Positions 10,513 through 28,563 of a DNA stretch of 35,188 nt are shown piece after piece. The notes below the pieces were generated by a model. It ran no database searches and was not told where the DNA came from. It saw only the letters and a list, made by a program, of their open reading frames with translations. Numbering within the stretch: the first letter of the stretch is position 1; each line of letters starts with the position of its first letter. Origin of the DNA: an uncultured archaeon (lineage in GTDB: Archaea > Nanobdellota > Nanobdellia > Pacearchaeales > GW2011-AR1). The stretch lies in contig CBDVEE010000001.1 of the NCBI GenBank assembly GCA_965372925.1, forward strand, positions 1 through 35,188, in the 5' to 3' direction. The position numbers were made by a program, and so were the translations under genes.

Positions 10513-10746
10513 TTATTTAATAGAAAAAACTTCGCACTCGAAATCAAGATTTAGCTCCTTAGAAATATCTGCCTTAGATTTCAAAACATCAAATTCAATT
10601 TTGGCAGCCTCAAGTTTTTCAACCGTTCCATCTCGAGTATCCTTAGAAATAAAAACCTGCTTCAATTTTTTATTCTTCAATGCTTGCCTAATTCCAAAAA
10701 GAACATTTCCTTTTTCCATTGCTTCCTTAATCTCTTTTATACTCAT
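10513..10746 (-). CDS. rpl30e: 50S ribosomal protein L30e (eL30), short form (77 aa)
   Basis: It occupies the canonical slot after rpoA with an ATGA overlap. The translation is L7Ae/L30e-like (GIRQALKN...VFIS). Confidence 0.75.
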   Translation of the reverse strand: MSIKEIKEAMEKGNVLFGIRQALKNKKLKQVFISKDTRDGTVEKLEAAKIEFDVLKSKADISKELNLDFECEVFSIK

Positions 10747-13700
10747 TTGCCTTTCTTCTCCTTTTTTTCTGCTAACGAGCCAGTAACCTTAACCAAAAGA
10801 CCAGGTAACCCCGTCCCAACAGGCACAGGTTGATTCAAAATAATATTCTCAATCACCGACGCTAATTTATCCTTTCTTCCAATCTTAGTAGCCTGAACAA
10901 ACTGAGGCACAGGAGTTTCAAATGAAGCCTTCGCTAAAATAGAACTCTTATCAGAAATAATTCCCATACGGGTAATTCCCTTGACAACACCCGAGTTCGT
11001 CATTGTATCCGCAACCAATATGGCATGCTTACTATCGACAGCAAGACCCTGCGAACTAATTACTTTATTAATTTCATTAACAATCAACTGCCGAGTCGCC
11101 TCAATACCCAACACCTGCGAAATCTCATGGATATCATTACTCAAAACCCTGTCAGCATCAACGCCCTTAAATGACATAATATCCTTCAAATTAGAACCGG
11201 CAGTCAAGATAACATAATCCTTATTTCGCTTAACAACAAGAACCTGCGAAATATTCTTAACGCCCGTCAAAATAACTTCTTTAATTTTTTCCTTAACTTT
11301 ATAGATAGTCTTAAAATCTTCTTTAGTCATATCAAGTATCATACCTTCAGACAATTTCTTAACATCAAAACCTTTCTCTCCAAGAATTTCGACTACCTTA
11401 TCTAAAGAAATATGAACACTCTTTAGAGCCTTCATATCAACACTAATCTTAATTTTCTTTGAACCAAAATCAATCGCAATATTAGAAATAATTTCTTTTA
11501 ATTTAACTTCCTTAATTTTCTCAGCAACAATTCTGGCATCCTTTTCATTATTATGTTTCTTGTCTAAATAAATTTCCATAGATGGTGTCTTAGGCAACTT
11601 ACGAGCATCCAAAATCTCAATAATACGAGGAAGTCCCTGAGTAACCTGCATCTCTGCAACACCTGCCGCATGAAACACATTTAGAACCATCTGCGTCGAC
11701 GCCTCACCAAAAGACTGAGCAGTCACAATACCAATGGCCTCACCCGGCACAACTTTCTTATTCAAATGTTTGGCCGAAATATCCAAACCATCAGGACCAT
11801 AAGCAAACTGAATAATATTACTCGAAGCATCTCTGACAGTCCCATCGTAAGCCATAATTAAATCCTGCAAAGCATTAGCCAATCGTCTGTATAAATAACC
11901 AGATTTAGGAGTTCTAAGCGCAGTATCCATTAAACCATCCCTACCGGTCATAGCACCAAAGAAAAATTCCTCAGGTTTCAAGCCCTTCATAAACGAACCA
12001 TAAATAAAACCGCCAGCACTAGCTGATAAATCACCTCTCTTGAAAAACGGCAATGTTCTCTCCGTATAACCAAAATCAATCCTACGACCATGCAACACCT
12101 GTTGCCCAACCGAACACGCAATCTGAGTAATATTTAACATACTACCTCCAGCACCCGAACCAATCATCTTGCTTGCTAAATTATCTTTAGGGAAACCCTC
12201 TTTAACCGCATCCCCAATCTCAGTTCGCGTCTCATTCAAAGCATGCAAAATCTTATTCTCCCTCGTCTCCTCCGCACTCTTCCCCGGCAATAATTCTAAG
12301 CTACCATCATAATAACTCTCAATAATCTTCGATGTTTTCTCTTCAGCAACCTCGATAATTTTTGACGTTTTTTTCTTCACGGATTCGGGAACATCTAAAT
12401 CCTCCATCGCAAGCGTAAATCCTGTCCTCGATAAAAAAGTCGTACCAAGTAAAAAAACCTGTCTTAGAAGTTCAACGGCGGATTCACGACCAAGCTCCTT
12501 GTCTATAACTCTTAAAACCTCTCCCCTTCCCGTCTTAAAATTTGTCGCATCAAAACCCTTGCCAGCAATAGACTTAGGCAAAACTTTTTCAAAAACATCC
12601 TTGCCAGAATTAATCTTGTTTAAACTGGGTATCTTAATCCCTATTTCATGTAACAATTGCGAAGCGTCCTCTTTGCTCAATTCAGCCTCACTCAACATAA
12701 AATTACCACTAACCGCGTCTTTAACACAACCAAGAAAATTCATATTATTTTTCGGAGAAAACAAATTAGCATTAACATTCAATAAAATTTTTGCTTCAGC
12801 CCGAGCCTCTTCAGTCTGAGGTGAATGAACATTCATTTCATCACCATCAAAATCGGCATTATAAGGAGCACAAACCGCAGGATGAATTCTAAAAGTCCTA
12901 CCCGAAATTACCTTAACATAATGTGCCATTAACGAAGCTCTATGTAGAGACGGATGCCGATTAAACAATACAATATCACCATCAACAAGATGTCTCTCAA
13001 CGGTATAACCCGGTTCAAGTTCCTCAACCAATTCGTCCCTCAACTCATCAACAATTCTTTTTCTCTTGCCATCAATCCTCAAAATATAATTTGCCATAGG
13101 ATATTCCGTACTAGCAACTAATTTTTTCATTCTTTTTATATTAATAGAAGTTACCCTCTCTGCAACAGTCAAAATTTTAGCAACCTCGTATGGGACACCC
13201 ACCTCATTCAATTTCAAATTAGGGTCCGGCGAAATAACAGTACGCGCCGAATAATTAACTCTCTTGCCAGCCAAGTTTTTTCTAATTCGACCCTCCTTGC
13301 CTTTAATTCTTTCTGTAATTGTTTTCAGGGGTTGACCACTTCTATGTCGAGCAGGCGGAATCTTGGCAATTGAATTATCGAAAAAGGTCGTAATATGATA
13401 CTGCAACAAATCCCAAAGATCCTCAATAATAACCTCAGGCGCACCCGCATTCAAGTTCTCCCAAAGTCTCTGATTTGAACGAATGATATCAGACAGCTTA
13501 TGAGTCAAATCGTCTTCAGACCTCTCACCAGATTCCAAAGTAATCGATGGACGAACCGTAACAGATGGAACAAGTAATGAAGTCAAAATTGCACACTCAG
13601 GTCTCAGAGTCACCGCATTAATTCCCAAAACTTTCAAATCCTCGTCGGGAACCTTAACCAATCTCTCTCTAATCTCTGAAGGAAACAACCTTCTTCTCCC

Positions 13701-14153
13701 ACTCCTAAAAGTAGTCGGCTTTTCCAATTTAGTCTTCTCCTGAATAATTGAACAATGTGGACATTTTTTTCCGTCCTTTGCCTTCTTAATTCTACCAATC
13801 AAATCTTTAGCCAAATCCTTTTCGTCTTTAATTAAAACTTTACCACATGCCTCACAGGTGCTTCGAAGAACTAAATCAATAATAGGCAAATATTTAATGT
13901 GAACAACTGGTCTCGCAAATTCGATTATACCAGGATGACCCAAGCACTCTTTCAATCGCCCACCACAAGTTCGACACCTGACACCTGGATCAATCGCACC
14001 AAGCCTCAAATCCATCAACCCACCGTCGACAGGATAACCATCAACATCATAAAGTTCTGGTGTCACAATCTTCGCAACACTCAATTTCTTAATCTGCTCA
14101 GGGCTAAGCAAAGAAAATCCTATCTCCTTAATTTGTTTTCTAACTGGTTTCAT
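10743..14153 (-). CDS. rpoA: DNA-directed RNA polymerase largest subunit, unsplit A'-A'' fusion (1136 aa)
   Basis: The N-terminal Zn motif is CRTCGGRLKECLGH. The catalytic motif is NADFDGDEMN (about 12832-12861). The A''-type trigger-loop region PGEAIGIVTAQSFGEASTQMVLNVFHAAGV (about 11700-11790) is in the same uninterrupted ORF. Confidence 0.95.
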   Translation of the reverse strand: MKPVRKQIKEIGFSLLSPEQIKKLSVAKIVTPELYDVDGYPVDGGLMDLRLGAIDPGVRCRTCGGRLKECLGHPGIIEFARPVVHIKYLPIIDLVLRSTCEACGKVLIKDEKDLAKDLIGRIKKAKDGKKCPHCSIIQEKTKLEKPTTFRSGRRRLFPSEIRERLVKVPDEDLKVLGINAVTLRPECAILTSLLVPSVTVRPSITLESGERSEDDLTHKLSDIIRSNQRLWENLNAGAPEVIIEDLWDLLQYHITTFFDNSIAKIPPARHRSGQPLKTITERIKGKEGRIRKNLAGKRVNYSARTVISPDPNLKLNEVGVPYEVAKILTVAERVTSINIKRMKKLVASTEYPMANYILRIDGKRKRIVDELRDELVEELEPGYTVERHLVDGDIVLFNRHPSLHRASLMAHYVKVISGRTFRIHPAVCAPYNADFDGDEMNVHSPQTEEARAEAKILLNVNANLFSPKNNMNFLGCVKDAVSGNFMLSEAELSKEDASQLLHEIGIKIPSLNKINSGKDVFEKVLPKSIAGKGFDATNFKTGRGEVLRVIDKELGRESAVELLRQVFLLGTTFLSRTGFTLAMEDLDVPESVKKKTSKIIEVAEEKTSKIIESYYDGSLELLPGKSAEETRENKILHALNETRTEIGDAVKEGFPKDNLASKMIGSGAGGSMLNITQIACSVGQQVLHGRRIDFGYTERTLPFFKRGDLSASAGGFIYGSFMKGLKPEEFFFGAMTGRDGLMDTALRTPKSGYLYRRLANALQDLIMAYDGTVRDASSNIIQFAYGPDGLDISAKHLNKKVVPGEAIGIVTAQSFGEASTQMVLNVFHAAGVAEMQVTQGLPRIIEILDARKLPKTPSMEIYLDKKHNNEKDARIVAEKIKEVKLKEIISNIAIDFGSKKIKISVDMKALKSVHISLDKVVEILGEKGFDVKKLSEGMILDMTKEDFKTIYKVKEKIKEVILTGVKNISQVLVVKRNKDYVILTAGSNLKDIMSFKGVDADRVLSNDIHEISQVLGIEATRQLIVNEINKVISSQGLAVDSKHAILVADTMTNSGVVKGITRMGIISDKSSILAKASFETPVPQFVQATKIGRKDKLASVIENIILNQPVPVGTGLPGLLVKVTGSLAEKKEKKGK

Positions 14154-18404: not shown

Positions 18405-19451
18405 TCACATATTTTCATATTGCTGAACTTCTTCATTTAAAAGCTCAAACTTAACACCAGCTTCCTTAAAAAGATTTTTAGAGTCTTGAGACGCATGATA
18501 ATCTTTAACGGCAACAACTCGTTTTACTCCGACCGTAATAATTAGCTTTGCGCAAACATAACACGGAGTCATGAAATTGTAAAGAGTGGCTCCATCTAAA
18601 GAAATTCCCAATTTGGCTGCCTGACAAATTGCGTTCTGTTCAGCATGAGTAGTTCTTACACAATGATTTGTTATACTTCCATCTTTGTGTATAGTCTCTT
18701 TAAACTGGTGACCAACATCATCACAATGACAACACCCAGGAGGAGAACCGACATAACCCGTTACTAAAATACGTTTATCTCTAACAACTACACACCCACC
18801 CCCACCAGCCCTCGCCCTATCACAAGTAACCCTTTTAGAAACAGCTTCCATAATTCCCATAAAATATTCATCCCATGTTGGACGGATATATTTTTTATTT
18901 TTATCCCTAATCCTACTTAAAACTCTTTCAACCTTCTCGTACAATTCAGCTATTGTCCAATCGTTCTTAAATTTATAATCTGCCATCTCCATACACCTTT
19001 GAAGATTTTGTTTATTCGGATTATTCGAAATCATCTCCCTTTGTTCCTGTGCTACAAATTCATTAAACGAAATTCTGTCTGTTTCGCTTGCCCTCTCAAA
19101 AATTCTCGTATACCGTATCTCAATATCTGCATCAACCGCAAACAAAACAAATTCATCTTTTTCCTTCAATGCTTCAACCTCTCCCGGACATCGTAAACTC
19201 TCAACAACACAATCCCCACCATCACTCTTCGCTTTTTTATACAACTCCTCCACAATATAACTCGGACTAAACTTCCCTCTCAAATCATTTGCAACCAAAA
19301 CCATATTTTCCCGATTAGATTCCATCCCTCTCTTTACAATTTCCTCAACCAAAAAATCCCGCACAGAATAATGTTTAAAATTCTTCTTCAAAAGATACTC
19401 AACAATCGTCCCCTTCCCTGCACCCAAAGTTCCAGTAATTCCAATAATCAT
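18405..19451 (-). CDS. Fusion protein: N-terminal P-loop nucleotide-kinase-like domain plus C-terminal dCMP deaminase
   Basis: The N-terminal Walker A is GITGTLGAGKGT. The C-terminal zinc deaminase motifs are THAEQNAI and PCYVCAKL, ComEB/dCMP deaminase-like. Confidence 0.8.
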   Translation of the reverse strand: MIIGITGTLGAGKGTIVEYLLKKNFKHYSVRDFLVEEIVKRGMESNRENMVLVANDLRGKFSPSYIVEELYKKAKSDGGDCVVESLRCPGEVEALKEKDEFVLFAVDADIEIRYTRIFERASETDRISFNEFVAQEQREMISNNPNKQNLQRCMEMADYKFKNDWTIAELYEKVERVLSRIRDKNKKYIRPTWDEYFMGIMEAVSKRVTCDRARAGGGGCVVVRDKRILVTGYVGSPPGCCHCDDVGHQFKETIHKDGSITNHCVRTTHAEQNAICQAAKLGISLDGATLYNFMTPCYVCAKLIITVGVKRVVAVKDYHASQDSKNLFKEAGVKFELLNEEVQQYENM

Positions 19452-20022: not shown

Positions 20023-21255
20023 ATGGAACTGGAAAACGCAAAAAAAACAATTGAAAAGGCGACAGGAAAACTAAATCTCCCGAAAGAAACTCTCGACATA
20101 ATTCTAAACACAGAAAGAGAAGTAAAAGTAAATTTTCCCGTGAAAATGGATGATGGAACACAGAAAATTTTTACCGGCTACAGAATTCAACATAATTCGT
20201 TACTCGGACCATACAAAGGAGGAATAAGATACCATCCGGAAGTAAATCTCGATGAAGTATCTGCCCTGTCAATCTGGATGACAATAAAAACAGCGACGCT
20301 AAATCTTCCACTTGGTGGAGCAAAAGGTGGAGTAATTTGCAATCCAAAAGAACTCTCGGAACAAGAAATTGAAAATTTAACACGAGGATTCATAAAAAAA
20401 ATCGCTCCGGTAATTGGACCGCAAAAAGATATCCCTGCACCAGATGTGTACACTAATTCAAAAATAATGGACATAATCGTCGACGAGTATTTCAAATTAG
20501 AAGATATACCAATTGAAAAAGCAAGAGCCGTTGTCACAGGAAAATCTATAGAGAACGGAGGCTCGCTCGGACGAGACACAGCAACAGCACGAGGCGGACA
20601 ATTTGTTTTAAAACAAGCAATTGAGCAAACCAAAATAATTCCAACGCTAGAAAACACAACCATAGTAATTCAGGGAATCGGAAACGCTGGCGGAAATTTC
20701 GCAAAACTAATATCCAAAGATAACACAAAAATAATTGCCATCTCAGATTCCAAAGGTGCAATCCACAATTCAGAAGGACTAAATATAAACGAAGTTCTCG
20801 AACACAAAAAACAAACAGGTTCTTTAATAAATATTCCAAATACAACCAGCATAACAAATGAGCAGCTCCTTGAATTGAATTGCGATGTTTTAGTTCTAGC
20901 AGCCTTAGCAGGACAAATCACAAAAGAAAACGCAGATAGAATAAAGGCAAAAATAATTTTAGAACTTGCAAACGGACCGACAACACCCAAAGCCGACGAA
21001 ATCCTCGAAGGGAAAAACAAACTAATCCTTCCCGACATTCTCGCAAATGCTGGTGGGGTAACTGTTTCATATTACGAATGGCTCCAAAATATAAATCAAG
21101 AAAAATGGACAGCAGAAAAAGTAGATGAAAAATTAAAAGAAAAAATACAAAAAGCAACGCGAAAAATTTTAGATAAAAAAATAAAATACCAAACCACGAC
21201 GAGAATTGCAGCATATATTAACGCGATTGAGAGGTTGAGTGAGAAACTATCCTAA
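20023..21255 (+). CDS. gdhA: Glutamate dehydrogenase
   Basis: The catalytic-Lys region is GPYKGGIRYHP...LPLGGAKGG. A Rossmann motif GIGNAGG is present. Length is 410 aa. Confidence 0.9.
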   Translation: MELENAKKTIEKATGKLNLPKETLDIILNTEREVKVNFPVKMDDGTQKIFTGYRIQHNSLLGPYKGGIRYHPEVNLDEVSALSIWMTIKTATLNLPLGGAKGGVICNPKELSEQEIENLTRGFIKKIAPVIGPQKDIPAPDVYTNSKIMDIIVDEYFKLEDIPIEKARAVVTGKSIENGGSLGRDTATARGGQFVLKQAIEQTKIIPTLENTTIVIQGIGNAGGNFAKLISKDNTKIIAISDSKGAIHNSEGLNINEVLEHKKQTGSLINIPNTTSITNEQLLELNCDVLVLAALAGQITKENADRIKAKIILELANGPTTPKADEILEGKNKLILPDILANAGGVTVSYYEWLQNINQEKWTAEKVDEKLKEKIQKATRKILDKKIKYQTTTRIAAYINAIERLSEKLS

Positions 21256-21974
21256 TCCCTAACTCCAACTTCCCAAAAAAATTCCTCAACGCTCTTTTTC
21301 AATTCTTTTAAAAATTCCTCACCAATCTCTTTCTCTTTCAAAAAATCAGAATCAATCATTCCTTCTTTATTCTTTTTAAATCCCTGCAAAAAATATCTTT
21401 TTGGTTTTGCATCACAAATTTTATTCAGCCATTTTCCTAAAGCCCTAATAGAGTCCACGTCGTGAAACCGATTAAGAACCGTTGTTCTGAATTCGTAATT
21501 GCCAAATTCATATATTATTTTAACTGACTCCTCAATCTTCTTCAAATCAACCTCAACACCAGCAACCTTAGAATAATCCTCTCGACAAGACTTCACATCC
21601 ATCGCAATATAATCAATCAATCCCAAATCAATCATCTCTCTCAGCCGATTAGGAAACGAACCATTTGTATCAATCTTAATTTTATATCCCAACTCTTTAA
21701 CCTTTCTCATAAAATCAAAATCCAAACTCATTAACGGCTCACCACCCGTAATACAAACTGCATCCAACTTCCCAACTCTTTTTTTCAAAAATTCTAAAAC
21801 CTTCTCTTTATAATAACCCCCTTTAAAATCCCCAATAACCAAATCAGGATTATGACAAAACCCACAACGAAAATTACATCCATGTAAAAAAATTGTGCAC
21901 GCAATCTCGCCCGGATAATCAATCGTTGTTACTTTCTGTAGACCTGCAATTTTCATCCTATCAACACTTCCCAT
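21252..21974 (-). CDS. nrdG: Anaerobic ribonucleoside-triphosphate reductase activating protein (radical SAM)
   Basis: The CX3CX2C motif is CNFRCGFCHNP. It lies adjacent to nrdD and the glycyl-radical mini-ORF. Confidence 0.85.
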   Translation of the reverse strand: MGSVDRMKIAGLQKVTTIDYPGEIACTIFLHGCNFRCGFCHNPDLVIGDFKGGYYKEKVLEFLKKRVGKLDAVCITGGEPLMSLDFDFMRKVKELGYKIKIDTNGSFPNRLREMIDLGLIDYIAMDVKSCREDYSKVAGVEVDLKKIEESVKIIYEFGNYEFRTTVLNRFHDVDSIRALGKWLNKICDAKPKRYFLQGFKKNKEGMIDSDFLKEKEIGEEFLKELKKSVEEFFWEVGVRD

Positions 21975-21998
21975 TCTTTATTTTTCATAATCTAATTT

Positions 21999-22127
21999 CT
22001 ACTCCCTACCATCAGAAACAAACATTTTCCTATCCTCAAACTCTGCTAATTTCCCTTCATTCCATCGATCAGTCGGTCGAAGATAACCTACAACCCTAGC
22101 CCAAACCTCACATTTCGTTCTATCCAT
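21999..22127 (-). CDS. 42-aa mini-ORF encoding the class III RNR glycyl-radical loop (not in the ORF track)
   Basis: Hand translation gives MDRTKCEVWARVVGYLRPTDRWNEGKLAEFEDRKMFVSDGRE*. GAGGTGAT lies 4 nt upstream of the ATG at 22127. The ORF overlaps the last 8 nt of nrdD in another frame and ends 24 nt before the nrdG ATG. Confidence 0.65.
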   Translation of the reverse strand: MDRTKCEVWARVVGYLRPTDRWNEGKLAEFEDRKMFVSDGRE

Positions 22128-24309
22128 TAGTATCACCTCTTAAATTTAGTTTTAAATCCGATACATTATTCCCTCTCATTATCACTTTTTCAACTTCTAG
22201 TATTTCTGGCTTTTGATTTTTTATTACCCCAAAATTCTCGCTAATTTTTTCATCCCTCTTTTCTGCTTCGACAATATCATCAGCAACAGAAATTGGAGTA
22301 ACCTCCGCCTCAGCAATTTCAGCATCGCACTTTGGACAATATTCATGCTCTCCGCTTAAATATCCGTGAATAGGACAAATTGAAAATGTTGGTGAGATTG
22401 TAAAATAGGGCAGATGGTAATTGCCAGAGATTTTTTTAACCATCTTTTTAACTGAATCAACGCTCATTCTCTCCCCAACGAAAGTATGAAAAACTGTGCC
22501 TCCTGTATATTTACATTGTAATTCGTCCTGTAAATCTAATGCTTCAAAAACATCATCAGTAAAATTCACAGGAAGTTGAGTCGAATTAGTATAATATGGC
22601 TTCGCATCCTTCTGATACGCATCTTCATTTGCAACCAAAATTCTACCAAACCTTTTTTTATCCATTCGAGCAAATCTATAAGTCGTTCCCTCCCCCGGCG
22701 TCGCTTCTAAATTATAAATATTTCCAGTTTCTTCTTGATACTCTGTCAACCTATTCCTCATAAAATCTAAAATCTTCAACGCAAAAGCCCGACCTTTCTC
22801 TGTCGTAATATTTTCCCCGGGCAAAAAATTCGTCACCGCCTCATTCATCCCTAAAAGACCAATCGTCGCAAAATGATTTTTCCAATATTCACCAAATTTT
22901 TGATGAACCTGTCTAAGATAAAATTTCGTATAAGGATAAAGTCCCATCTTTGTAAAATTCTCAATCGTTTTTCTCTTAATCTCCAAACTTTCTTTTGCCA
23001 ACTCCATTAACCCATCTAATCTCGCCATAAAATCATCCTCATTCGTCGACACATAACCCAATCTCGCCATATTTATTGTCACAACTCCAATACTTCCTGT
23101 TTGTGGATTCGACCCGAACAAACCACCACCACGTTTTCTTAGTTGTGTATTATCAATTCTAAGACGACAACACATGCTCCGTGAATCTTCTGGTTTCATA
23201 TCTGAATTAACAAAATTTGAGAAATATGGAATTCCATATTTTGCCGTCATCTCCCATATTAAATCATATTCAGGATTATCAAAGTCAAAATCTTTTGTAA
23301 TATTATAAGTCGGAATTGGAAAAGTAAAAACCTGTCCCGTCGCATCACCCTCAAGCATACATTCTGCAAACGCCTTATTAATCATATTCATTTCTTTTTG
23401 AAAATCTCCGTAAGTTTCCATCTGTGGCTGACCTCCCGCAATCACATGTTCCTTCACCATATAGTCAGGTACATCTAAATCCATTGTAATGTTTGTAAAT
23501 GGAGTTTGGAAGCCCACCCTCGTCGGCACCGCCAAATTAAAAACAAATTCCTGCATAGCCTGTTTAACTTGTTCATAATTCAAATTATCATATCTTACAA
23601 ACGGCGCAAGCAAAGTATCAAAATTTGAAAACGCCTGAGCTCCCGCAGTTTCACCCTGCAAAGTATAAAAGAAATTAACCATCTGCCCCAACGCAGTTCT
23701 CAAATGTTTTGGCGGTTTTGATTCAACTTTGCCCTTAACCCCCTTAAATCCAACCATTAATAAATCCTTTAAATCCCAGCCAACGCAGTATGCGCCAAGA
23801 CAACCCAAATCATGAACATGTAAATCTCCTGCTTCATGAGCACGTCTAATAGCCTCGGGATAAATTCTTCTCACCCAATAGTTCGCGATGATTTTCGTCG
23901 CGATATAATTATTCAAACCTTGTAATGAATACCCCATATTAGAATTTTCTTTAACCATCCAATCATCCAAACCAATATAATCTTCGACAGCCTCAATTGT
24001 ATCAAACAAACCCTTAACATCTCTCAACTCTTCGCGACTTTTACGATAAAGAATAAACGCCTTGGCAACCTGAGCATGTCCTTCCTCAATTAAAATCTTC
24101 TCAATTAAGTCCTGAACAATCTCAACCTCCGGGATTCCGTGCAACCCATATGTCTCGTCCAATTTTTTAATAATCAAACCCGCAATCTCCTTCGCACGCT
24201 CTTTATCTTTCCCTCCGACAGCGCGAACAGCTTTCCAAATTGCACCTTCAATCTTTTCCATCTGGAAGAACACAACGCTCCCATCTCTTTTTCTAATTTT
24301 TTTTACCAT
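22120..24309 (-). CDS. nrdD: Anaerobic ribonucleoside-triphosphate reductase (class III) catalytic subunit, lacking the glycyl-radical motif in frame
   Basis: An N-terminal ATP-cone is present (VKKIRKRDGSVVFFQMEKIEGAI). The core is conserved (CCRL, GGGLFG). The C-terminal Zn-site segment is SICPIHGYLSGEHEYCPKCD. A non-conserved 67-aa tail and a stop follow. Confidence 0.9.
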   Translation of the reverse strand: MVKKIRKRDGSVVFFQMEKIEGAIWKAVRAVGGKDKERAKEIAGLIIKKLDETYGLHGIPEVEIVQDLIEKILIEEGHAQVAKAFILYRKSREELRDVKGLFDTIEAVEDYIGLDDWMVKENSNMGYSLQGLNNYIATKIIANYWVRRIYPEAIRRAHEAGDLHVHDLGCLGAYCVGWDLKDLLMVGFKGVKGKVESKPPKHLRTALGQMVNFFYTLQGETAGAQAFSNFDTLLAPFVRYDNLNYEQVKQAMQEFVFNLAVPTRVGFQTPFTNITMDLDVPDYMVKEHVIAGGQPQMETYGDFQKEMNMINKAFAECMLEGDATGQVFTFPIPTYNITKDFDFDNPEYDLIWEMTAKYGIPYFSNFVNSDMKPEDSRSMCCRLRIDNTQLRKRGGGLFGSNPQTGSIGVVTINMARLGYVSTNEDDFMARLDGLMELAKESLEIKRKTIENFTKMGLYPYTKFYLRQVHQKFGEYWKNHFATIGLLGMNEAVTNFLPGENITTEKGRAFALKILDFMRNRLTEYQEETGNIYNLEATPGEGTTYRFARMDKKRFGRILVANEDAYQKDAKPYYTNSTQLPVNFTDDVFEALDLQDELQCKYTGGTVFHTFVGERMSVDSVKKMVKKISGNYHLPYFTISPTFSICPIHGYLSGEHEYCPKCDAEIAEAEVTPISVADDIVEAEKRDEKISENFGVIKNQKPEILEVEKVIMRGNNVSDLKLNLRGDTNG

Positions 24310-24397
24310 TTTCTAATTTGAGTTTATTTAAACACGGTTATCGCCTCATTAAGAGGTTCCCGTGCCCCGAAGGGGTATGACCCTTGTGGTTACCATT

Positions 24398-24841
24398 TTA
24401 TTTTCCTAACTTCCTAATTTCATCTCTGAATTCATTGATATCCGCAAAGTCGCGATATACTGACGCAAAACGAATATAAGCAACCTTATCAATTCGCTTG
24501 AGTTTGTTCATAACAATATCGCCAACTTTTGAACTCTTTATATCCTTATCTTTCGCAATCCGATAAATGCTCGCCTCAACTTCATTGACAATATTATCTA
24601 TCTGCTCACTCGTAAATTGCCTCTTCTGGAGATTCTTGTCAATTCCTTCAAAAAGTTTATCACGCGAAAATTTTTCCCGCCGGCTATCTTTTTTAATAAC
24701 GCTAAGATCCAATTCTACCCTCTCATACGTCGTCCACCGCTTTCCACACTTCAAACATTCACGCCTTCGACGCGCCACCGAACCATTATCACGCTTATCG
24801 GTAACTTTCGTTTCACTCGCAGTACAATATGGACATCTCAT
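24398..24841 (-). CDS. nrdR: Transcriptional repressor NrdR (Zn ribbon plus ATP-cone)
   Basis: The translation MRCPYCTASETKVTDKR...RRRRECLKCGKRWTTYERVE fits NrdR, followed by an ATP-cone (KKDSRREKFSRDKL...). It lies directly upstream of nrdD. Confidence 0.9.
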   Translation of the reverse strand: MRCPYCTASETKVTDKRDNGSVARRRRECLKCGKRWTTYERVELDLSVIKKDSRREKFSRDKLFEGIDKNLQKRQFTSEQIDNIVNEVEASIYRIAKDKDIKSSKVGDIVMNKLKRIDKVAYIRFASVYRDFADINEFRDEIRKLGK

Positions 24842-25087
24842 TTTTTATTTTATAGTGAATACAAGATATAGTATCTCGCACCTCTTTTAACCACAATCGC
24901 TTGTAGTCGCAAAAACATGTCATAAAAAAGACTATTTAAAGATTATTATCATGAAGGATATATTTCTGTTAACAATAGTTAACATTACAAACCAATATTT
25001 ACTTTTTTTCAATAGTTACTCATCTTTAAATAGCCAAAATTTTCCATAAAATTACGATAGAAATGTCGAAGAGAATATTGAGAAATT

Positions 25088-26332
25088 TTAATAAAAACAA
25101 AAACTCTTGCACAACTCTCTAACTTCTCCCCGAATTTTTTCACGAACAGATTCATTAGACATCTGATTTATCACATCCGCAATCCAGTTTCCAACAATTA
25201 TCATCTCGTCTTCTTTCATTCCCATCGTAGTCAAAATCGGGACACCTAAGCGAATCCCAGAAGGCTTGAAGGGAGTTGAAGGATCAAAAGGAATTGTGTT
25301 TGCGTTTGTAATAATTCCTGCTTCTTCTAATGCAATTGCAATTTTTTTACCATGTCCAGCCTCGGCAATTGAAAGTGTTTTAATTAAATCAATCAAAATC
25401 AGATGATTATCAGTCCCATCACTCACCAAACTAATTTTTCTCTTCCTCAGCGTATCGGCAAGCACGGCACAATTCTTAACAATCTGCCGAGAGTATTCTC
25501 TAAATGAAGGTTTCAGTGCCTCACCAAAAGCAATCGCCTTCCCAGCAATGGTATGTTCGTGAGGACCGCCTTGCAACCCCGGGAAAACCGCTTTATCAAC
25601 AGCCTGAGCAAATTCCTTCTTACACATAATAATCGCACTACGCGGACCCCTCAAAGTCTTGTGTGTAGTCGTCGTAACAAAATCAAAATCTGGAAATGGA
25701 CTTGGATGAACACCCGAAGCAACCAACCCAGCAACATGAGAAATGTCCGCCAAACAATAAGCATCAATTTCCTTAGCAATATTAGCAAACTCCTTGAAAT
25801 CAACAACCCTCGGATAAGCAGTCGCTCCACAAACAATCATCTTCGGTCTTTCTTTCAAGGCAATCTCGCGAACTTTTTTCATATCAACCAAACAAGTTTC
25901 TCTCTCGACGCCATACGAAACAAACTCATAATCTTTCCCAGAAAAATTCACAGGCGAACCGTGTGTCAAATGCCCACCATGGCTCAAATCCATCCCAAGA
26001 ATTTTATCTCCTTTTTCAAGCACCGCCATATAAACCGCCATATTTGCAGGACTCCCAGAATTCGGTTGCACATTTACATGCTCCGCCCCGAACAATTTTT
26101 TAGCACGTTCAATTGCTAAATTCTCAATTTCATCACAAAACTTATTTCCCTGATAATACCGACGTCCTGGATAACCCTCCGCATATTTATTACCCAAAAC
26201 CGAACCACACGCTGCCATAACATCTTTTGAACAAAAATTTTCCGAAGGTATCATATTTAGAGTTTCTTTCTGCCTTTGCAATTCTGCCTGAATAATATCA
26301 TTCACCTCTTTATCCGAAATCCAAAAACTCAT
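25088..26332 (-). CDS. glyA: Serine hydroxymethyltransferase
   Basis: The PLP-Lys region is VTTTTHKTLRGPR. Also present are GYPGRRYY and SHGGHLTHG. An ATGA overlap links it to the upstream Tmk-ThyX gene. Confidence 0.95.
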   Translation of the reverse strand: MSFWISDKEVNDIIQAELQRQKETLNMIPSENFCSKDVMAACGSVLGNKYAEGYPGRRYYQGNKFCDEIENLAIERAKKLFGAEHVNVQPNSGSPANMAVYMAVLEKGDKILGMDLSHGGHLTHGSPVNFSGKDYEFVSYGVERETCLVDMKKVREIALKERPKMIVCGATAYPRVVDFKEFANIAKEIDAYCLADISHVAGLVASGVHPSPFPDFDFVTTTTHKTLRGPRSAIIMCKKEFAQAVDKAVFPGLQGGPHEHTIAGKAIAFGEALKPSFREYSRQIVKNCAVLADTLRKRKISLVSDGTDNHLILIDLIKTLSIAEAGHGKKIAIALEEAGIITNANTIPFDPSTPFKPSGIRLGVPILTTMGMKEDEMIIVGNWIADVINQMSNESVREKIRGEVRELCKSFCFY

Positions 26333-28563
26333 ATCAAACTTCTTTTAGCTTCTGTCTTCTCTTCTGCCTTAAGTCGACCAAGCTCCTCCTTAGAATAATT
26401 ACAAATAATATATTTCGATAAAAGTGGATATTCTTCACTCATAATTTCGTATATTTTACGAACAATTTTTCTATATGAATCGTGCGCCATCGGAGTCGTT
26501 CTTAATTTAATAAAATAATGAAGCTCCCTCAAATTCATTGTAATCAAAAATCTCTTTCTAAAACCGAGAGGTAAAAGATATTGAGCCTGCAAAGGATGCT
26601 TTTCCCTAACTTTCTCATAAACTTCTTTGGCTTTTTCCATCGCAAGTCGATATTCCGCCTCAACACCCGCAACAATAATATCATCAGGCACATCATATCC
26701 CAAGTCCGAAGTGAAAACAGGGTTCGTTTGTGTGCAAATTCTATGTCTTTGTAAATCACGAAAAGCCCCATAATCCATCACAATATCAAAACTAAAATAC
26801 TGATGTTCCAACTCCCTCAATGGATGGTCAAACTCTCCCATTTTCCCAAGATAACTATCAATAATTCCCTCTCTGTCAAAAGAATTCATAGATACAACTC
26901 TGCGTTCAGCTTCGGCAAAAGAGCAATTGCCATAACGATATAAAATAGAAGAAATAATCATGTTTTCAGGATCTTTAGGAAAGTTGACAAGTCTGACTTT
27001 TTCCCCATCAAAAGAATTCTCCTTAAAATTAAAAGTTTGCAAATTCTCTTGTGTCTGACAAAAATAATCTTTCTTATCAGAATGTCTCAATAAAGATGGA
27101 ATAACCTTTCCACCTTCCGTTTTTAATTTTTCACCAATTTCATTCATCTCCTTTAGAGGATGAGACAAAAGTTTAGAAATCGCATGAGACAACTGTCGAG
27201 CATTCACCGTCCAGCCAAGACTCGTTTTAGTACAGGTAGGCAACAAATAACGAATCGCGTCAAATCTTCGCGAAGCACAAGCTTTTTTCCACGCCATCTC
27301 CGAAGAGCCCTCTTTCAAGGGAACCATACCTTCAACATATTCCAAAACCGGCTCATGAAGTTTTGTATATGTTTCAAAAAGGAAATCCAACATTTCATTT
27401 ATATCATCGGCATATTCAGAATTTTTCAAAACATCATCCAAATAAAAAGAACTCCTATAAAAAGAAACATATCTCGTGGACTTCTCACAAAAAGAGCAAA
27501 GCCGATTGTCCTCGATAACTTTTGTCGCAAGAATGCTAACTCCCTCCAATCCAAGTCCAACTACCGCCCCCTCCGCAATCGAACTATGACCATAACCCAA
27601 AACCCATTTTTCCATAAAATCTATCGCCTTCTTCTCGGCATACTTAATCGCTGCACCTTGTTTGCTGTTTTTTATTTCATCCACAAGCAAACCAAAATTA
27701 GACTCATCCATTTTCAATAAATCCAAAAAACTCTCACGCAAACCCTCTTCGGAACGACTATATTTAGCTTGCATCAAAGCCCAAACCTCAGGATGAAAAT
27801 TCTTAGTAGCAAAAATTGTACTATCAAGATTCGTAAAAAAATAATCCAAAACCAACTTTTCGTCCTCGCTATATTTCAAGCGTTCCTCTAACTTCTCCCA
27901 CAACTCCTCATGAATTTCTTCTGGCGTTTTCAACGAAGCCATCGTTCCATCAGGTGCACAATTAATCATAATCCAACCATACAACTCCGCCAAATGTAAA
28001 TACGACTCCTCCGCATGTTCCATATGTTTCTTGCACCCTTCGTGTCCATCCAACTTCTCAGCCCCAGGATGAAACTCAGATTTTCGCTCACGTTCCGACA
28101 TCAACTGACGACTAACATCATATGGCATATAAAGAAACACGACAGCATCCGGCTTCGGCAACTGAAAGTTTTCATACTCAAGTTTATGCAACCACTCAAA
28201 AAATTTCTCTCTTTCAGCACGATCACGAATCTTTCCTCCCTGATGCCCCATATTCGACTCAACATATCTATCTAAAATCGTCACATTTCCTTTAGCCAAC
28301 TCGTCGTAAATAAAACCCTTAGACGCAAATCTGTCCTCCGCATAAAAAATAGAAGCAACCTTCGCCGGAATATCATTCGCATGTCCAAACTCCCCATCAA
28401 GATACCGTCGGACAATCTTCCCGGTAGGCGTAGAATAATTCGGAAAATCTAAAGTCACAACTCCCTGATTCAACTTCTTTAATTTTTCAATCAATAAATT
28501 AATCTGTGTAGACTTCCCAGAACAATCGGTCCCCTCAAAAACAATTAGCTTCCCTTCTTTCAT
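26329..28563 (-). CDS. tmk/thyX: Fusion: thymidylate kinase (N-terminal about 230 aa) plus two tandem ThyX-like (flavin-dependent thymidylate synthase) domains
   Basis: Tmk motifs are FEGTDCSGKST and DRY. ThyX-like domain 1 is GHSSIAEG...DNRLCSFCEKSTRY...NARQLSHAI. Domain 2 is HPLRELEH...RHRICTQ...MNLRELHYFIKLR. Confidence 0.8.
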   Translation of the reverse strand: MKEGKLIVFEGTDCSGKSTQINLLIEKLKKLNQGVVTLDFPNYSTPTGKIVRRYLDGEFGHANDIPAKVASIFYAEDRFASKGFIYDELAKGNVTILDRYVESNMGHQGGKIRDRAEREKFFEWLHKLEYENFQLPKPDAVVFLYMPYDVSRQLMSERERKSEFHPGAEKLDGHEGCKKHMEHAEESYLHLAELYGWIMINCAPDGTMASLKTPEEIHEELWEKLEERLKYSEDEKLVLDYFFTNLDSTIFATKNFHPEVWALMQAKYSRSEEGLRESFLDLLKMDESNFGLLVDEIKNSKQGAAIKYAEKKAIDFMEKWVLGYGHSSIAEGAVVGLGLEGVSILATKVIEDNRLCSFCEKSTRYVSFYRSSFYLDDVLKNSEYADDINEMLDFLFETYTKLHEPVLEYVEGMVPLKEGSSEMAWKKACASRRFDAIRYLLPTCTKTSLGWTVNARQLSHAISKLLSHPLKEMNEIGEKLKTEGGKVIPSLLRHSDKKDYFCQTQENLQTFNFKENSFDGEKVRLVNFPKDPENMIISSILYRYGNCSFAEAERRVVSMNSFDREGIIDSYLGKMGEFDHPLRELEHQYFSFDIVMDYGAFRDLQRHRICTQTNPVFTSDLGYDVPDDIIVAGVEAEYRLAMEKAKEVYEKVREKHPLQAQYLLPLGFRKRFLITMNLRELHYFIKLRTTPMAHDSYRKIVRKIYEIMSEEYPLLSKYIICNYSKEELGRLKAEEKTEAKRSLI

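What the first reader, a model, noticed from the sequence alone, without database searches (positions are those of the whole stretch)
21999..22330. Class III RNR whose glycyl-radical loop is encoded by a separate, overlapping 42-codon ORF
The nrdD ORF has the ATP-cone, the catalytic core and the C-terminal Zn-site segment (SICPIHGYLSGEHEYCPKCD). It then runs into a non-conserved acidic and Lys-rich 67-aa tail (AEIAEAEVTPISVADD...NLRGDTNG) and stops at 22120 without the glycyl-radical motif that every active NrdD needs.

Translating the minus strand in the neighbouring frame gives MDRTKCEVWARVVGYLRPTDRWNEGKLAEFEDRKMFVSDGRE (22127 down to 21999). This is the canonical RVxGY...WNxGK..EF..R radical loop. 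Its ATG is preceded by GAGGTGAT 4 nt upstream, complementary to the archaeal 16S 3' end, and overlaps the last 8 nt of nrdD. A TAA sits 12 nt upstream in that frame, so the loop can only be joined to NrdD by a frame change inside a window of about 20 nt. The mini-ORF ends 24 nt before nrdG, the activase that must install the radical.

Three options remain: (i) a genuinely split enzyme with a free, replaceable radical peptide, analogous in logic to the GrcA/YfiD spare part for pyruvate formate-lyase; (ii) programmed frameshifting; or (iii) an indel error. In every case a roughly 200-nt insertion separates the Zn site from the radical loop. The ORF track misses this ORF and instead shows a spurious plus-strand ORF at 21893-22099.
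Basis: partly seen in the sequence, partly recalled or inferred. Interest (0 to 1): 0.85.

Follow-up and report, generated by a model that had tools for sequence, protein, structure and literature searches.

The report
Two-gene anaerobic ribonucleotide reductase, separate radical peptide
In this DPANN archaeon the oxygen-sensitive enzyme that makes DNA building blocks is encoded in two pieces, a 729-residue body and a separately translated 42-residue peptide carrying the essential radical glycine; the same split recurs in many archaea, bacteria and viruses and I found no paper describing it.

Summary
nrdD (22120-24309, minus strand) holds the ATP-cone, catalytic core and Zn site, matching Pfam NRDD positions 1-530. 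The last 32 profile positions, with RVVGY...WNEGK, lie in a 42-codon ORF (21999-22127) in the +1 frame. That ORF has GAGGTGAT plus ATG and overlaps nrdD by 8 nt.

It is not an error. Six independent assemblies have an identical junction, and all 119 closest NrdD homologues in which the Zn site could be located also end without the loop.

It is not frameshifting. Among the window plus 80 reference-genome loci, 60 are split, using all three frame relations (11/25/24), overlaps or spacers. In Halanaerobiales nrdG lies between core and peptide gene. All 60 peptide genes start with ATG; 43 have a Shine-Dalgarno match (4% of control ATGs). dN/dS is about 0.08.

A profile search found 149 small stand-alone proteins among the best 150 hits. 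The 200-nt "insertion" is a translated, acidic, length-variable tail specific to this clade.

Best reading: an obligate two-subunit class III RNR with translationally coupled genes. The replaceable-cartridge function is inferred. RefSeq annotates such peptides, but no paper I could search describes them. This is a new variant of a known kind.

The parts
24398..24841 (-). nrdR: Zn-ribbon plus ATP-cone repressor, first gene of the nrdR-nrdD-peptide-nrdG array
   Evidence: Pfam Zn_ribbon_NrdR and ATP-cone
22120..24309 (-). nrdD large subunit ORF, 729 aa plus stop. It has the ATP-cone, catalytic core, Zn site and acidic tail, and lacks the glycyl-radical loop.
   Evidence: NF006126 scores 1048.7 bits over residues 2-672.
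24031..24300 (-). ATP-cone domain (residues 4-93)
   Evidence: Pfam PF03477, E = 1.7e-16
22318..23949 (-). NRDD catalytic core (residues 121-664), matching Pfam profile positions 1-530 of 562
23167..23172 (-). Finger-loop cysteines C380-C381 of the SMCCRLR motif. These are the presumed thiyl-radical site that receives the radical from the peptide glycine.
   Evidence: Invariant columns S378 M379 C380 C381 R382 in alignment A3. The role is inferred from established NrdD mechanism.
22327..22377 (-). Zn-site segment CPIHGYLSGEHEYCPKC (residues 645-661). It stays on the large subunit.
   Evidence: It aligns to the Zn ribbons of 8P23 and 4COI.
22123..22326 (-). Acidic, low-complexity C-terminal tail (residues 662-729). 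It is translated and probably disordered, and is specific to this clade.
   Evidence: Open in the nrdD frame with 9 and 10 stops in the other frames, and 0.1% of shuffles open. Length varies from 16 to 385 aa in homologues. pLDDT is 28-36 in the model.
22132..22139 (-). Shine-Dalgarno sequence GAGGTGAT of the peptide gene, embedded in the nrdD codons for R-G-D
   Evidence: (A/G)GAGGTGAT is conserved at the nucleotide level across the clade. 43 of 60 split loci have an SD match of at least 5 nt, against 4.3% of control ATGs.
21999..22127 (-). Glycyl-radical peptide gene (42 codons plus stop) in the +1 frame, overlapping nrdD by 8 nt
   Evidence: Pfam NRDD positions 531-562. The exact protein is present in public collections on 6-7 contigs. 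dN/dS is about 0.08.
22086..22088 (-). Codon GGT for Gly14 of the peptide (RVVG*Y), the predicted radical site
   Evidence: Direct reading. G14 is invariant in alignment A1. It sits at the tip of a beta-hairpin in the model.
21252..21974 (-). nrdG activase (radical SAM, NrdG2 type). The likely true start is ATG 21956 (MKIAGLQ).
   Evidence: TIGR02495, 196 bits. Homologues start MKIAGLQ or MRLAGLQ.

Best explanation
This is an obligately two-subunit class III (anaerobic) ribonucleotide reductase.

The large subunit (729 aa) carries the ATP-cone, the catalytic barrel with its MCCR finger loop, the Zn ribbon and a disordered acidic tail. A separately translated 42-residue peptide supplies the beta-hairpin bearing the radical glycine (Gly14) and the short helix that follows it.

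The two genes belong to one nrdR-nrdD-peptide-nrdG array. The peptide gene has its own Shine-Dalgarno sequence and ATG, embedded in the last codons of nrdD with an 8-nt overlap. Ribosomes finishing nrdD can therefore re-initiate on it (translational coupling).

The peptide is inferred to dock non-covalently where the fused C-terminus sits in ordinary NrdD. NrdG is inferred to abstract the Gly14 hydrogen, and the radical is then relayed to the finger-loop cysteine as in other class III enzymes.

Shown here: the separate gene, its conservation, purifying selection and independent start signals. Inferred: docking, activation by NrdG, and the benefit. The likely benefit is that an oxygen-cleaved or spent radical carrier of about 5 kDa can be replaced without discarding the 84-kDa body, and that the activase has freer access to the glycine loop.
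For: Domain split. Pfam and NCBIfam NrdD profiles are divided exactly between the two ORFs.

Not an artefact. The junction is identical in six independent assemblies, one at 52x coverage.

Clade-wide pattern.
- All 119 best NrdD homologues (72-91% identity) in which the Zn site could be located end without RVxGY.
- Among the window plus 80 GTDB-genome loci, 60 are split.
- The frame offsets are 0, +1 and +2 in 11, 25 and 24 loci.
- Junctions range from overlaps of up to 35 nt to spacers of up to 124 nt.
- Sister taxa differ in frame, for example L014 versus L015 and L054 versus L061.

Halanaerobiales. In Halanaerobium, Orenia and Halanaerobacter the gene order is nrdD-nrdG-peptide gene. RefSeq lists the 42-49-aa proteins, for example WP_076545482.1, WP_143786648.1 and WP_204702061.1.

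Start signals and selection.
- All 60 peptide genes start with ATG.
- 43 of 60 have an SD match of at least 5 nt, against 4.3% of control ATGs.
- The SD is conserved at the nucleotide level while the peptide codons vary synonymously.
- Median dN/dS is 0.08 in the clade and 0.17 across all loci.

Breadth. A profile search of 1.84 billion representative proteins gave 4343 hits. Of the best 150, 149 are proteins of 40-126 aa.

Structure. In a model of a tail-less virtual fusion the peptide forms a beta-hairpin with the glycine at its tip, then a helix, as in canonical glycyl-radical domains.
Against: There is no expression, proteomic or biochemical evidence that the peptide is made, binds the core or is activated.

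The structure predictions give only low to moderate confidence for the peptide segment: pLDDT falls from about 70 to 35 and is 28-45. Because they model an artificial fusion, docking is not demonstrated.

Whether these genomes also hold a conventional full-length nrdD elsewhere could not be checked.

In the window's own clade the offset is always +1 with an overlap. A low level of frameshifted fusion product therefore cannot be formally excluded for this lineage alone.
Confidence: 0.85

Rival explanations
1. Programmed +1 ribosomal frameshifting, or stop-codon read-through in the offset-0 lineages, joins the two ORFs into one conventional NrdD with a long linker.
For: In the window's immediate clade the offset is always +1 and the ORFs overlap. 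An SD-like sequence lies just upstream of the nrdD stop, as it does in prfB (the prfB comparison is from general knowledge).
Against: The frame relation changes between sister taxa, and all three relations occur (11/25/24). Spacers reach 124 nt, and in Halanaerobiales nrdG lies between the two parts.

The position of the nrdD stop relative to the ATG varies from 4 to 35 nt of overlap, so no conserved shift site exists. Every peptide ORF keeps an ATG at the homologous position. No Rfam recoding element is found.
Confidence: 0.04
2. A sequencing or assembly indel, or a recent pseudogene: the locus is a broken ordinary nrdD.
For: A single-base change near 22120-22140 would fuse the frames.
Against: Six independent assemblies have an identical junction. 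All 119 closest homologues in which the Zn site could be located, and 60 of the window plus 80 genome loci, have the same architecture. dN/dS is about 0.08 on the peptide ORF. SD and ATG are conserved.
Confidence: 0.01
3. The peptide is a GrcA-like spare part or regulator that serves a full-length NrdD encoded elsewhere. On this view the adjacent loop-less NrdD is a different kind of protein, for example regulatory or inactive.
For: Stand-alone copies exist without any neighbouring core in viral contigs and in the archaeal virus ANMV-1. The module can therefore function away from its own core gene.
Against: The adjacent core keeps all the catalytic hallmarks: NF006126 at 1048.7 bits, the MCCR finger loop, the Zn site and the ATP-cone. 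It is 72-91% conserved across the clade and always sits next to the peptide gene and nrdG. The overlap and SD arrangement argues for co-production.
Confidence: 0.08

Closest known systems
Canonical class III ribonucleotide reductase NrdD with activase NrdG (T4, E. coli, Thermotoga maritima 4COI/4U3E, Prevotella copri 8P23)
   Same: It has the ATP-cone, the barrel with finger-loop cysteine(s), the Zn ribbon, the RVxGY...WNxGK radical motif and an adjacent radical-SAM activase. Sequence models score far above their cut-offs.
   Different: In every described NrdD the radical glycine is on the same chain, 13-16 residues after the Zn ribbon. Here it is on a separate 42-aa gene product.
GrcA/YfiD, the autonomous glycyl-radical 'spare part' of pyruvate formate-lyase
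   Same: It is a small stand-alone protein carrying only the glycyl-radical module of a large glycyl-radical enzyme, presumably activated by the same activase.
   Different: GrcA (127 aa, Pfam Gly_radical) coexists with a complete PFL and replaces its damaged domain. The peptide here matches only the NRDD model, is a third of the size, and its partner has no loop of its own. A 2026 review states that formate lyases are the only glycyl-radical enzyme class with spare-part proteins (PMC13450708).
Split RNR genes: Pseudomonas aeruginosa class II NrdJa/NrdJb, and the phage Aeh1 NrdA split by a homing endonuclease
   Same: One RNR catalytic chain is encoded by two adjacent genes whose products reassemble. 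NrdJa/NrdJb is cited in PMC9669993; Aeh1 is from my own knowledge.
   Different: The RNR class and split point differ, and no mobile element lies at the junction here. The small piece here is the radical cofactor itself.
Small subunits of other glycyl-radical enzymes (BssB/BssC, HpdC)
   Same: They are small accessory polypeptides bound to a large glycyl-radical enzyme subunit (general knowledge).
   Different: Those subunits do not carry the radical glycine, which remains on the large subunit.

Membership tests
Class III RNR catalytic subunit NrdD (PF13597 / TIGR02487 / NF006126) | Catalytic-core sequence model matched above the curated cut-off | tested here: met
   PF13597 615 bits. NF006126 1048.7 bits against a cut-off of 548.
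Class III RNR catalytic subunit NrdD (PF13597 / TIGR02487 / NF006126) | Finger-loop cysteine motif and C-terminal Zn site | tested here: met
   SMCCRLR with C380 and C381 invariant. CPIH...CPKC at residues 645-661.
Class III RNR catalytic subunit NrdD (PF13597 / TIGR02487 / NF006126) | Glycyl-radical motif RVxGY at the C-terminus of the same polypeptide | tested here: not met
   The large ORF covers profile positions 1-530 only. Positions 531-562 lie in a separate ORF in another frame. The same holds in all 119 closest homologues with a locatable Zn site.
Class III RNR catalytic subunit NrdD (PF13597 / TIGR02487 / NF006126) | Partner radical-SAM activase NrdG | tested here: met
   TIGR02495 NrdG2, 196 bits against a cut-off of 131, directly downstream.
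Class III RNR catalytic subunit NrdD (PF13597 / TIGR02487 / NF006126) | Glycyl radical formed and ribonucleotides reduced | not testable with these tools
   Needs EPR and an activity assay.
GrcA/YfiD autonomous glycyl-radical cofactor | Stand-alone small protein consisting of a glycyl-radical module | tested here: met
   A 42-aa ORF with its own SD and ATG. 149 of the best 150 profile hits are 40-126 aa.
GrcA/YfiD autonomous glycyl-radical cofactor | Homology to the PFL C-terminal domain (Pfam Gly_radical PF01228) | tested here: not met
   Only the NRDD family is matched at E <= 1.
GrcA/YfiD autonomous glycyl-radical cofactor | Coexists with a parent enzyme that has its own radical domain (a spare, not a sole source) | tested here: inconclusive
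   The adjacent core has no loop. The rest of the genome could not be searched.
Programmed ribosomal frameshift genes | Frame offset and shift site conserved among relatives, with no independent initiation signals | tested here: not met
   Offsets 0, +1 and +2 occur in 11, 25 and 24 loci. The position of the stop varies. ATG is present in 60 of 60 and an SD in 43 of 60. nrdG intervenes in Halanaerobiales.
RNR genes interrupted by mobile elements (group I intron, intein, homing endonuclease) | Intron RNA, intein or endonuclease ORF at the break | tested here: not met
   No Rfam match in 21900-24950 at E <= 1. The two ORFs overlap by 8 nt. The tail is coding and has no Pfam domain.

The most novel reading that the evidence does not exclude
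The glycyl radical of class III RNR exists in nature as a free-standing, exchangeable peptide cofactor of about 40 residues. This would be the smallest glycyl-radical protein.

The architecture is widespread in DPANN archaea, CPR bacteria, Thermoplasmatota, Omnitrophota and Halanaerobiales. It lets cells renew only the peptide after oxygen damage.

Viruses exploit it. Nineteen IMG/VR contigs and the archaeal virus ANMV-1 carry only the radical module, with no core and no activase. On this reading they plug it into the host's loop-less NrdD to boost dNTP supply.
Probability: 0.45. Interest if true: 0.9.

Novelty: new variant of a known kind. Interest (0 to 1): 0.8.

Why it matters
Every described glycyl-radical enzyme carries its radical glycine on the catalytic chain. 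The only known free module, GrcA, is a spare for pyruvate formate-lyase. An RNR whose radical site is an obligatory separate peptide of about 5 kDa would change the textbook picture of class III RNR as a single-chain alpha2 enzyme plus activase.

It would also give a natural minimal substrate for studying how activases recognise and open the glycyl-radical domain. And it would make the 'replaceable radical cartridge' idea directly testable in cultured Halanaerobium and Orenia.

There are practical consequences for annotation. Thousands of loop-less nrdD genes look truncated, and the 40-aa partners are easily missed or labelled as full reductases. In ANMV-1 a 144-aa fragment was read as a viral RNR. 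Orphan peptide genes in viral contigs suggest a new, extremely compact auxiliary metabolic gene.

Tried and rejected
- Indel or assembly error. Rejected by the identical junction in six independent assemblies and by clade-wide conservation.
- Programmed frameshifting or read-through. Rejected by variable frames and spacers and by the intervening nrdG.
- Intron, intein or homing endonuclease in the 200-nt segment. No Rfam hit at the gathering threshold or at E <= 1. The segment is open only in the nrdD frame and has no Pfam domain.
- The peptide cysteine (KCEV) as a fourth Zn ligand anchoring the peptide. Not pursued to a conclusion. The Cys is near-universal in split forms but is replaced by Pro, Val, Thr or Asp in some stand-alone and fused forms. 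T. maritima and P. copri lack it.
- Structure prediction of a virtual fusion with the natural tail. The model was poor (mean pLDDT 66, peptide 28-45) because the alignment was shallow.
- An alignment mixing fused homologues with the tailed query (A5). It misaligned the fused C-termini onto the tail and was discarded.
- The tail-less fusion (A6). It gave a canonical hairpin and helix at only moderate to low confidence. It is consistent with the reading but not decisive, and no coordinates were available to measure the Gly-Cys distance.
- NrdR-box search. One palindrome lies upstream of nrdR at 3 mismatches, which is no more than chance gives.
- Literature searches for a split or two-subunit NrdD or a stand-alone RNR glycyl-radical peptide. 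They found nothing. The library covers only open-access papers and bioRxiv.
Full report
**What is in the window**

The minus strand carries nrdR (24398-24841) and nrdD (22120-24309, 729 aa). A 42-codon ORF (21999-22127) and nrdG (21252-21974, probable start 21956) follow.

- Pfam places the ATP-cone at nrdD residues 4-93.
- The NRDD model covers residues 121-664 and uses profile positions 1-530 of 562.
- The remaining positions, 531-562, match the mini-ORF (E = 1.2e-9, 37.8 bits, above the 26.2-bit gathering score).
- NCBIfam NrdD models split in the same way, and nrdG is a TIGR02495 activase.

- the Zn segment CPIH...CPKC;
- the acidic tail ending NLRGDTNG with a TAG stop;
- GAGGTGAT 4 nt before the ATG at 22127;
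- the 8-nt overlap;
- the TAA 12 nt upstream in the mini-ORF frame;
- the 24 nt to the first ATG of the nrdG ORF.

The mini-ORF is in the +1 frame relative to nrdD. The radical glycine is Gly14, codon 22086-22088.

The surrounding genes show an archaeal chromosome. They include RNA polymerase Rpb1- and Rpb2-type subunits, EF-2 and an RFC-like AAA+ protein. The nrd genes sit in a dNTP-metabolism neighbourhood with a dCMP-deaminase fusion, glyA and a Tmk-ThyX fusion.

**Not an error**

The exact 42-aa protein is already in public collections. Its gene was retrieved from six other assemblies of different samples, one at 52x coverage. In all six the gene calls show the same 8-nt overlap between the nrdD gene and the 42-aa gene, with nrdG called downstream wherever the contig extends that far. 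The 101 nt around the junction are identical in all seven sequences.

The 120 best homologues of the large ORF are 72-91% identical and are labelled Pacearchaeota, Woesearchaeota or simply 'archaeon'.
- All 119 in which the Zn site could be located end without an RVxGY motif downstream.
- The remaining one is a 649-aa sequence with no recognisable Zn motif.
- After CPKC they carry acidic tails of 16-385 aa (median 66).
- 91 of these tails end in L-N/K-x-R/G-G-D/E.

At the DNA level that 'motif' is (A/G)GA GGT GAT. This is the Shine-Dalgarno sequence GGAGGTGAT of the peptide gene, followed by its ATG. In many relatives the nrdD frame is closed by the TGA that the peptide's Cys-Glu codons (TGT GAG) create in the -1 frame. 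More distant homologues end ...WQEQNVRSGAESAVI. By manual back-translation this fits an out-of-frame reading of ...TKCEVWSRVCGY; I did not check it against their DNA.

**Not frameshifting**

A scan of one genome per GTDB species returned 80 loci with relatives of the C-terminal core, at 92-59% identity. Scripted dissection gave the following.

- 60 of the 81 loci, counting the window, have the radical loop in a separate ORF of 38-63 aa.
- About 20 are fused, with only 8-13 residues between CxxC and the Arg of RVxGY.
- Frame offsets are 0 (with an in-frame stop), +1 and +2 in 11, 25 and 24 loci.
- They differ between sister taxa: L014 versus L015, L054 versus L061, and L036, L038 and L035.
- Junctions range from 35-nt overlaps to 124-nt spacers.

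In Halanaerobiales the order is nrdD, nrdG, then the peptide gene. The group includes the cultured Halanaerobium kushneri, H. saccharolyticum, Orenia metallireducens and Halanaerobacter jeridensis. RefSeq lists their 42-49-aa products as 'anaerobic ribonucleoside-triphosphate reductase(-like protein)'.

All 60 peptide ORFs start with ATG at the homologous position. 43 have a match of at least 5 nt to GGAGGTGA at positions -17 to -4, against 4.3% of 9070 control ATGs.

The 30-codon conserved block shows saturated synonymous change with little amino-acid change. Median dN/dS is 0.08 within the clade and 0.17 over all loci. No Rfam family, whether intron, riboswitch or recoding signal, matches the locus even at E <= 1.

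**How widespread**

Split loci come from several groups:
- DPANN archaea (Pace-, Woese-, Nano- and Micrarchaeota, Diapherotrites, Iainarchaeum);
- Thermoplasmatota;
- CPR bacteria (Kuenen-, Falkow- and Saccharibacteria, WS6);
- Omnitrophica;
- Halanaerobiales.

A rough neighbour-joining tree places a mostly CPR fused clade among many split lineages. It is not robust enough to count how many times the split arose.

A profile of 18 mini-proteins was searched against 1.84 billion 50%-identity representatives. It found 4343 proteins at E <= 1e-3 and 841 at E <= 1e-10. Of the best 150, 149 are 40-126 aa long, and many match from residue 1.

**The tail**

The 204-nt segment after the Zn site is open only in the nrdD frame. 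The other two frames have 9 and 10 stops, and only 0.1% of shuffles are open. It is therefore translated.

It is acidic: Asp plus Glu make up 27% of residues in the homologues' tails. It has no Pfam domain and is modelled with pLDDT 28-36. Long tails are confined to the window's clade. Other split lineages have tails of 7-30 aa, also mostly acidic (53 of 60 net negative), while the peptides' N-termini are mostly basic (42 of 60 net positive). This charge complementarity may help capture the peptide, but that is speculation.

**Mechanism**

Shown: there are two genes, they are co-located and overlapping, each has its own initiation signals, and the peptide is under strong purifying selection.

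Inferred from the established NrdD mechanism and structures (T4, T. maritima, P. copri; one search shows the alignment to 8P23 and 4COI):
- the peptide occupies the position of the fused C-terminus;
- Gly14 sits at the tip of a beta-hairpin next to the finger-loop cysteines C380 and C381;
- NrdG generates the radical.

A model of a tail-less virtual fusion, built with fused homologues in the alignment, gives a hairpin (677-682 and 685-688, with Gly684 at the tip) and a helix (694-701). This is the canonical shape. However, pLDDT falls from about 70 to 35 along the peptide, and the finger loop is below 50. This is consistent with the reading but does not prove it.

The functional advantage is an inference by analogy with GrcA. 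It would be cheap replacement of an O2-cleaved radical carrier, or easier access for the activase.

**Comparison with what is known**

Full-text searches for a split, bipartite or two-subunit NrdD, or a stand-alone RNR glycyl-radical peptide, returned nothing relevant. Evolutionary surveys of RNR do not mention it. [quoted passage not shown]

The architecture is therefore visible in automatic annotation but apparently not described. The library covers only open-access papers and preprints, so prior mention elsewhere cannot be excluded.

It is a member of the class III RNR system by every sequence criterion except one defining feature, the radical glycine on the catalytic chain. That feature was tested and is not met. 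It works partly like GrcA but is not a GrcA-family member: it matches the NRDD model, not Gly_radical.

**Seen in passing: viruses**

The mini-protein profile hit 21 IMG/VR contigs. One is a split locus with an adjacent core, and one is fused. The other 19 have the loop in small open frames (45-164 aa). These 19 share three features.
- No NrdD core or NrdG lies within 3.5 kb on either side.
- None is among the 69 viral contigs that hold a core of this subfamily.
- Sampled neighbours include a D5-type primase-helicase, a large terminase and an integrase.

In GenBank, the archaeal virus ANMV-1 (KP703175.1) encodes a 144-aa 'anaerobic ribonucleoside triphosphate reductase'. It consists only of a Zn ribbon plus the RIVGY loop, and the 38.5-kb record contains no core or activase. 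The original paper took it as a viral RNR (PMC4372165).

Free radical modules may thus be used by viruses in trans. This is a lead, not a finding.

**Verdict**

The split-gene reading is supported with a confidence of about 0.85. Frameshifting and error are rejected. I classify it as a new variant of a known kind and rate its interest at 0.8.

Noticed in passing
L082-L099 and L101 (IMG/VR viral contigs); L177/L178 = KP703175.1, 25525-25959: These are orphan glycyl-radical module genes in viral contigs. Small ORFs (45-164 aa) with CEVWSRVVGY...WNxGK have no NrdD core or NrdG within 3.5 kb, and no core was detected on the same contigs. Sampled neighbours include a large terminase, a D5-type primase-helicase and an integrase. 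The archaeal virus ANMV-1 has a 144-aa Zn-ribbon-plus-loop protein, published as 'nrdD', and no core in its 38.5-kb record.
   Followed up: partly
P0210, P0296, P0308, P0291; L094:1633-1725: Larger stand-alone variants (83-126 aa) carry their own CxxC...CxxC Zn ribbon in front of the radical loop. In some lineages the split (or the free module) therefore lies upstream of the Zn site instead of after it.
   Followed up: no
window 21956-21974: The nrdG ORF begins at ATG 21974 (MGSVDRMKIAG...). Homologues start at MKIAGLQ or MRLAGLQ, which corresponds to ATG 21956. The real gap to the peptide gene is therefore probably 42 nt, not 24.
   Followed up: partly
window 24398-24841 and 24859-24874: An NrdR repressor gene, typically bacterial, heads the nrd array of this archaeon. 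A palindrome, ATACAAGATATAGTAT, lies 17 nt upstream of its ATG and resembles an NrdR box at 3 mismatches. That is no more than chance gives (3 matches found, 2.3 expected).
   Followed up: partly
window 24330-24390 (minus strand): The nrdR-nrdD spacer contains a G+C-rich patch with a CCCCUUCGGGG hairpin. The predicted fold is -22.2 kcal/mol with a z-score of only -1.7, and there is no Rfam match.
   Followed up: partly
tails of P0023-P0082 and others; window residues around 688-694 (KISENFG): A short motif, [VIL]S[AVDE]F[GSEDK] (typically KKVSAFGE), recurs in 36 of 119 acidic tails. It occurs four times in the 385-aa tail of P0032. Its function is unknown.
   Followed up: no
P0019, P0045, P0366, P0379 and about 20 other homologues of 1020-1213 aa; L033: Many close NrdD homologues are about 300-480 aa longer than the window's protein. 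Some carry intein or LAGLIDADG Pfam domains (PF14528, PF14527, PF14890), so inteins are common in this NrdD clade. The window's copy has none.
   Followed up: no
window 26329-28563 (-), 18405-19451 (-), 10743-14153 (-): There are several gene fusions in the neighbourhood. Thymidylate kinase is fused to ThyX (744 aa), and an AAA_18-type kinase to dCMP deaminase (348 aa). RNA polymerase Rpb1 domains 1-5 lie in a single 1136-aa ORF, whereas many archaea split this subunit into A' and A''.
   Followed up: no
window 1873-5831 (+): An N6/N4 DNA methylase (590 aa) is followed, with overlap, by a type III restriction Res-type helicase (729 aa). This is probably a type III restriction-modification system.
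   Followed up: no
L002, L004 and other Pacearchaeota-like loci at the junction; window 22108-22116: The conserved Lys-Cys-Glu codons of the peptide (AAA TGT GAG) create a TGA in the nrdD frame. In many relatives this closes the nrdD frame, giving tails that end ...GENEM. It explains why the long tails always end at or just inside the peptide gene.
   Followed up: partly
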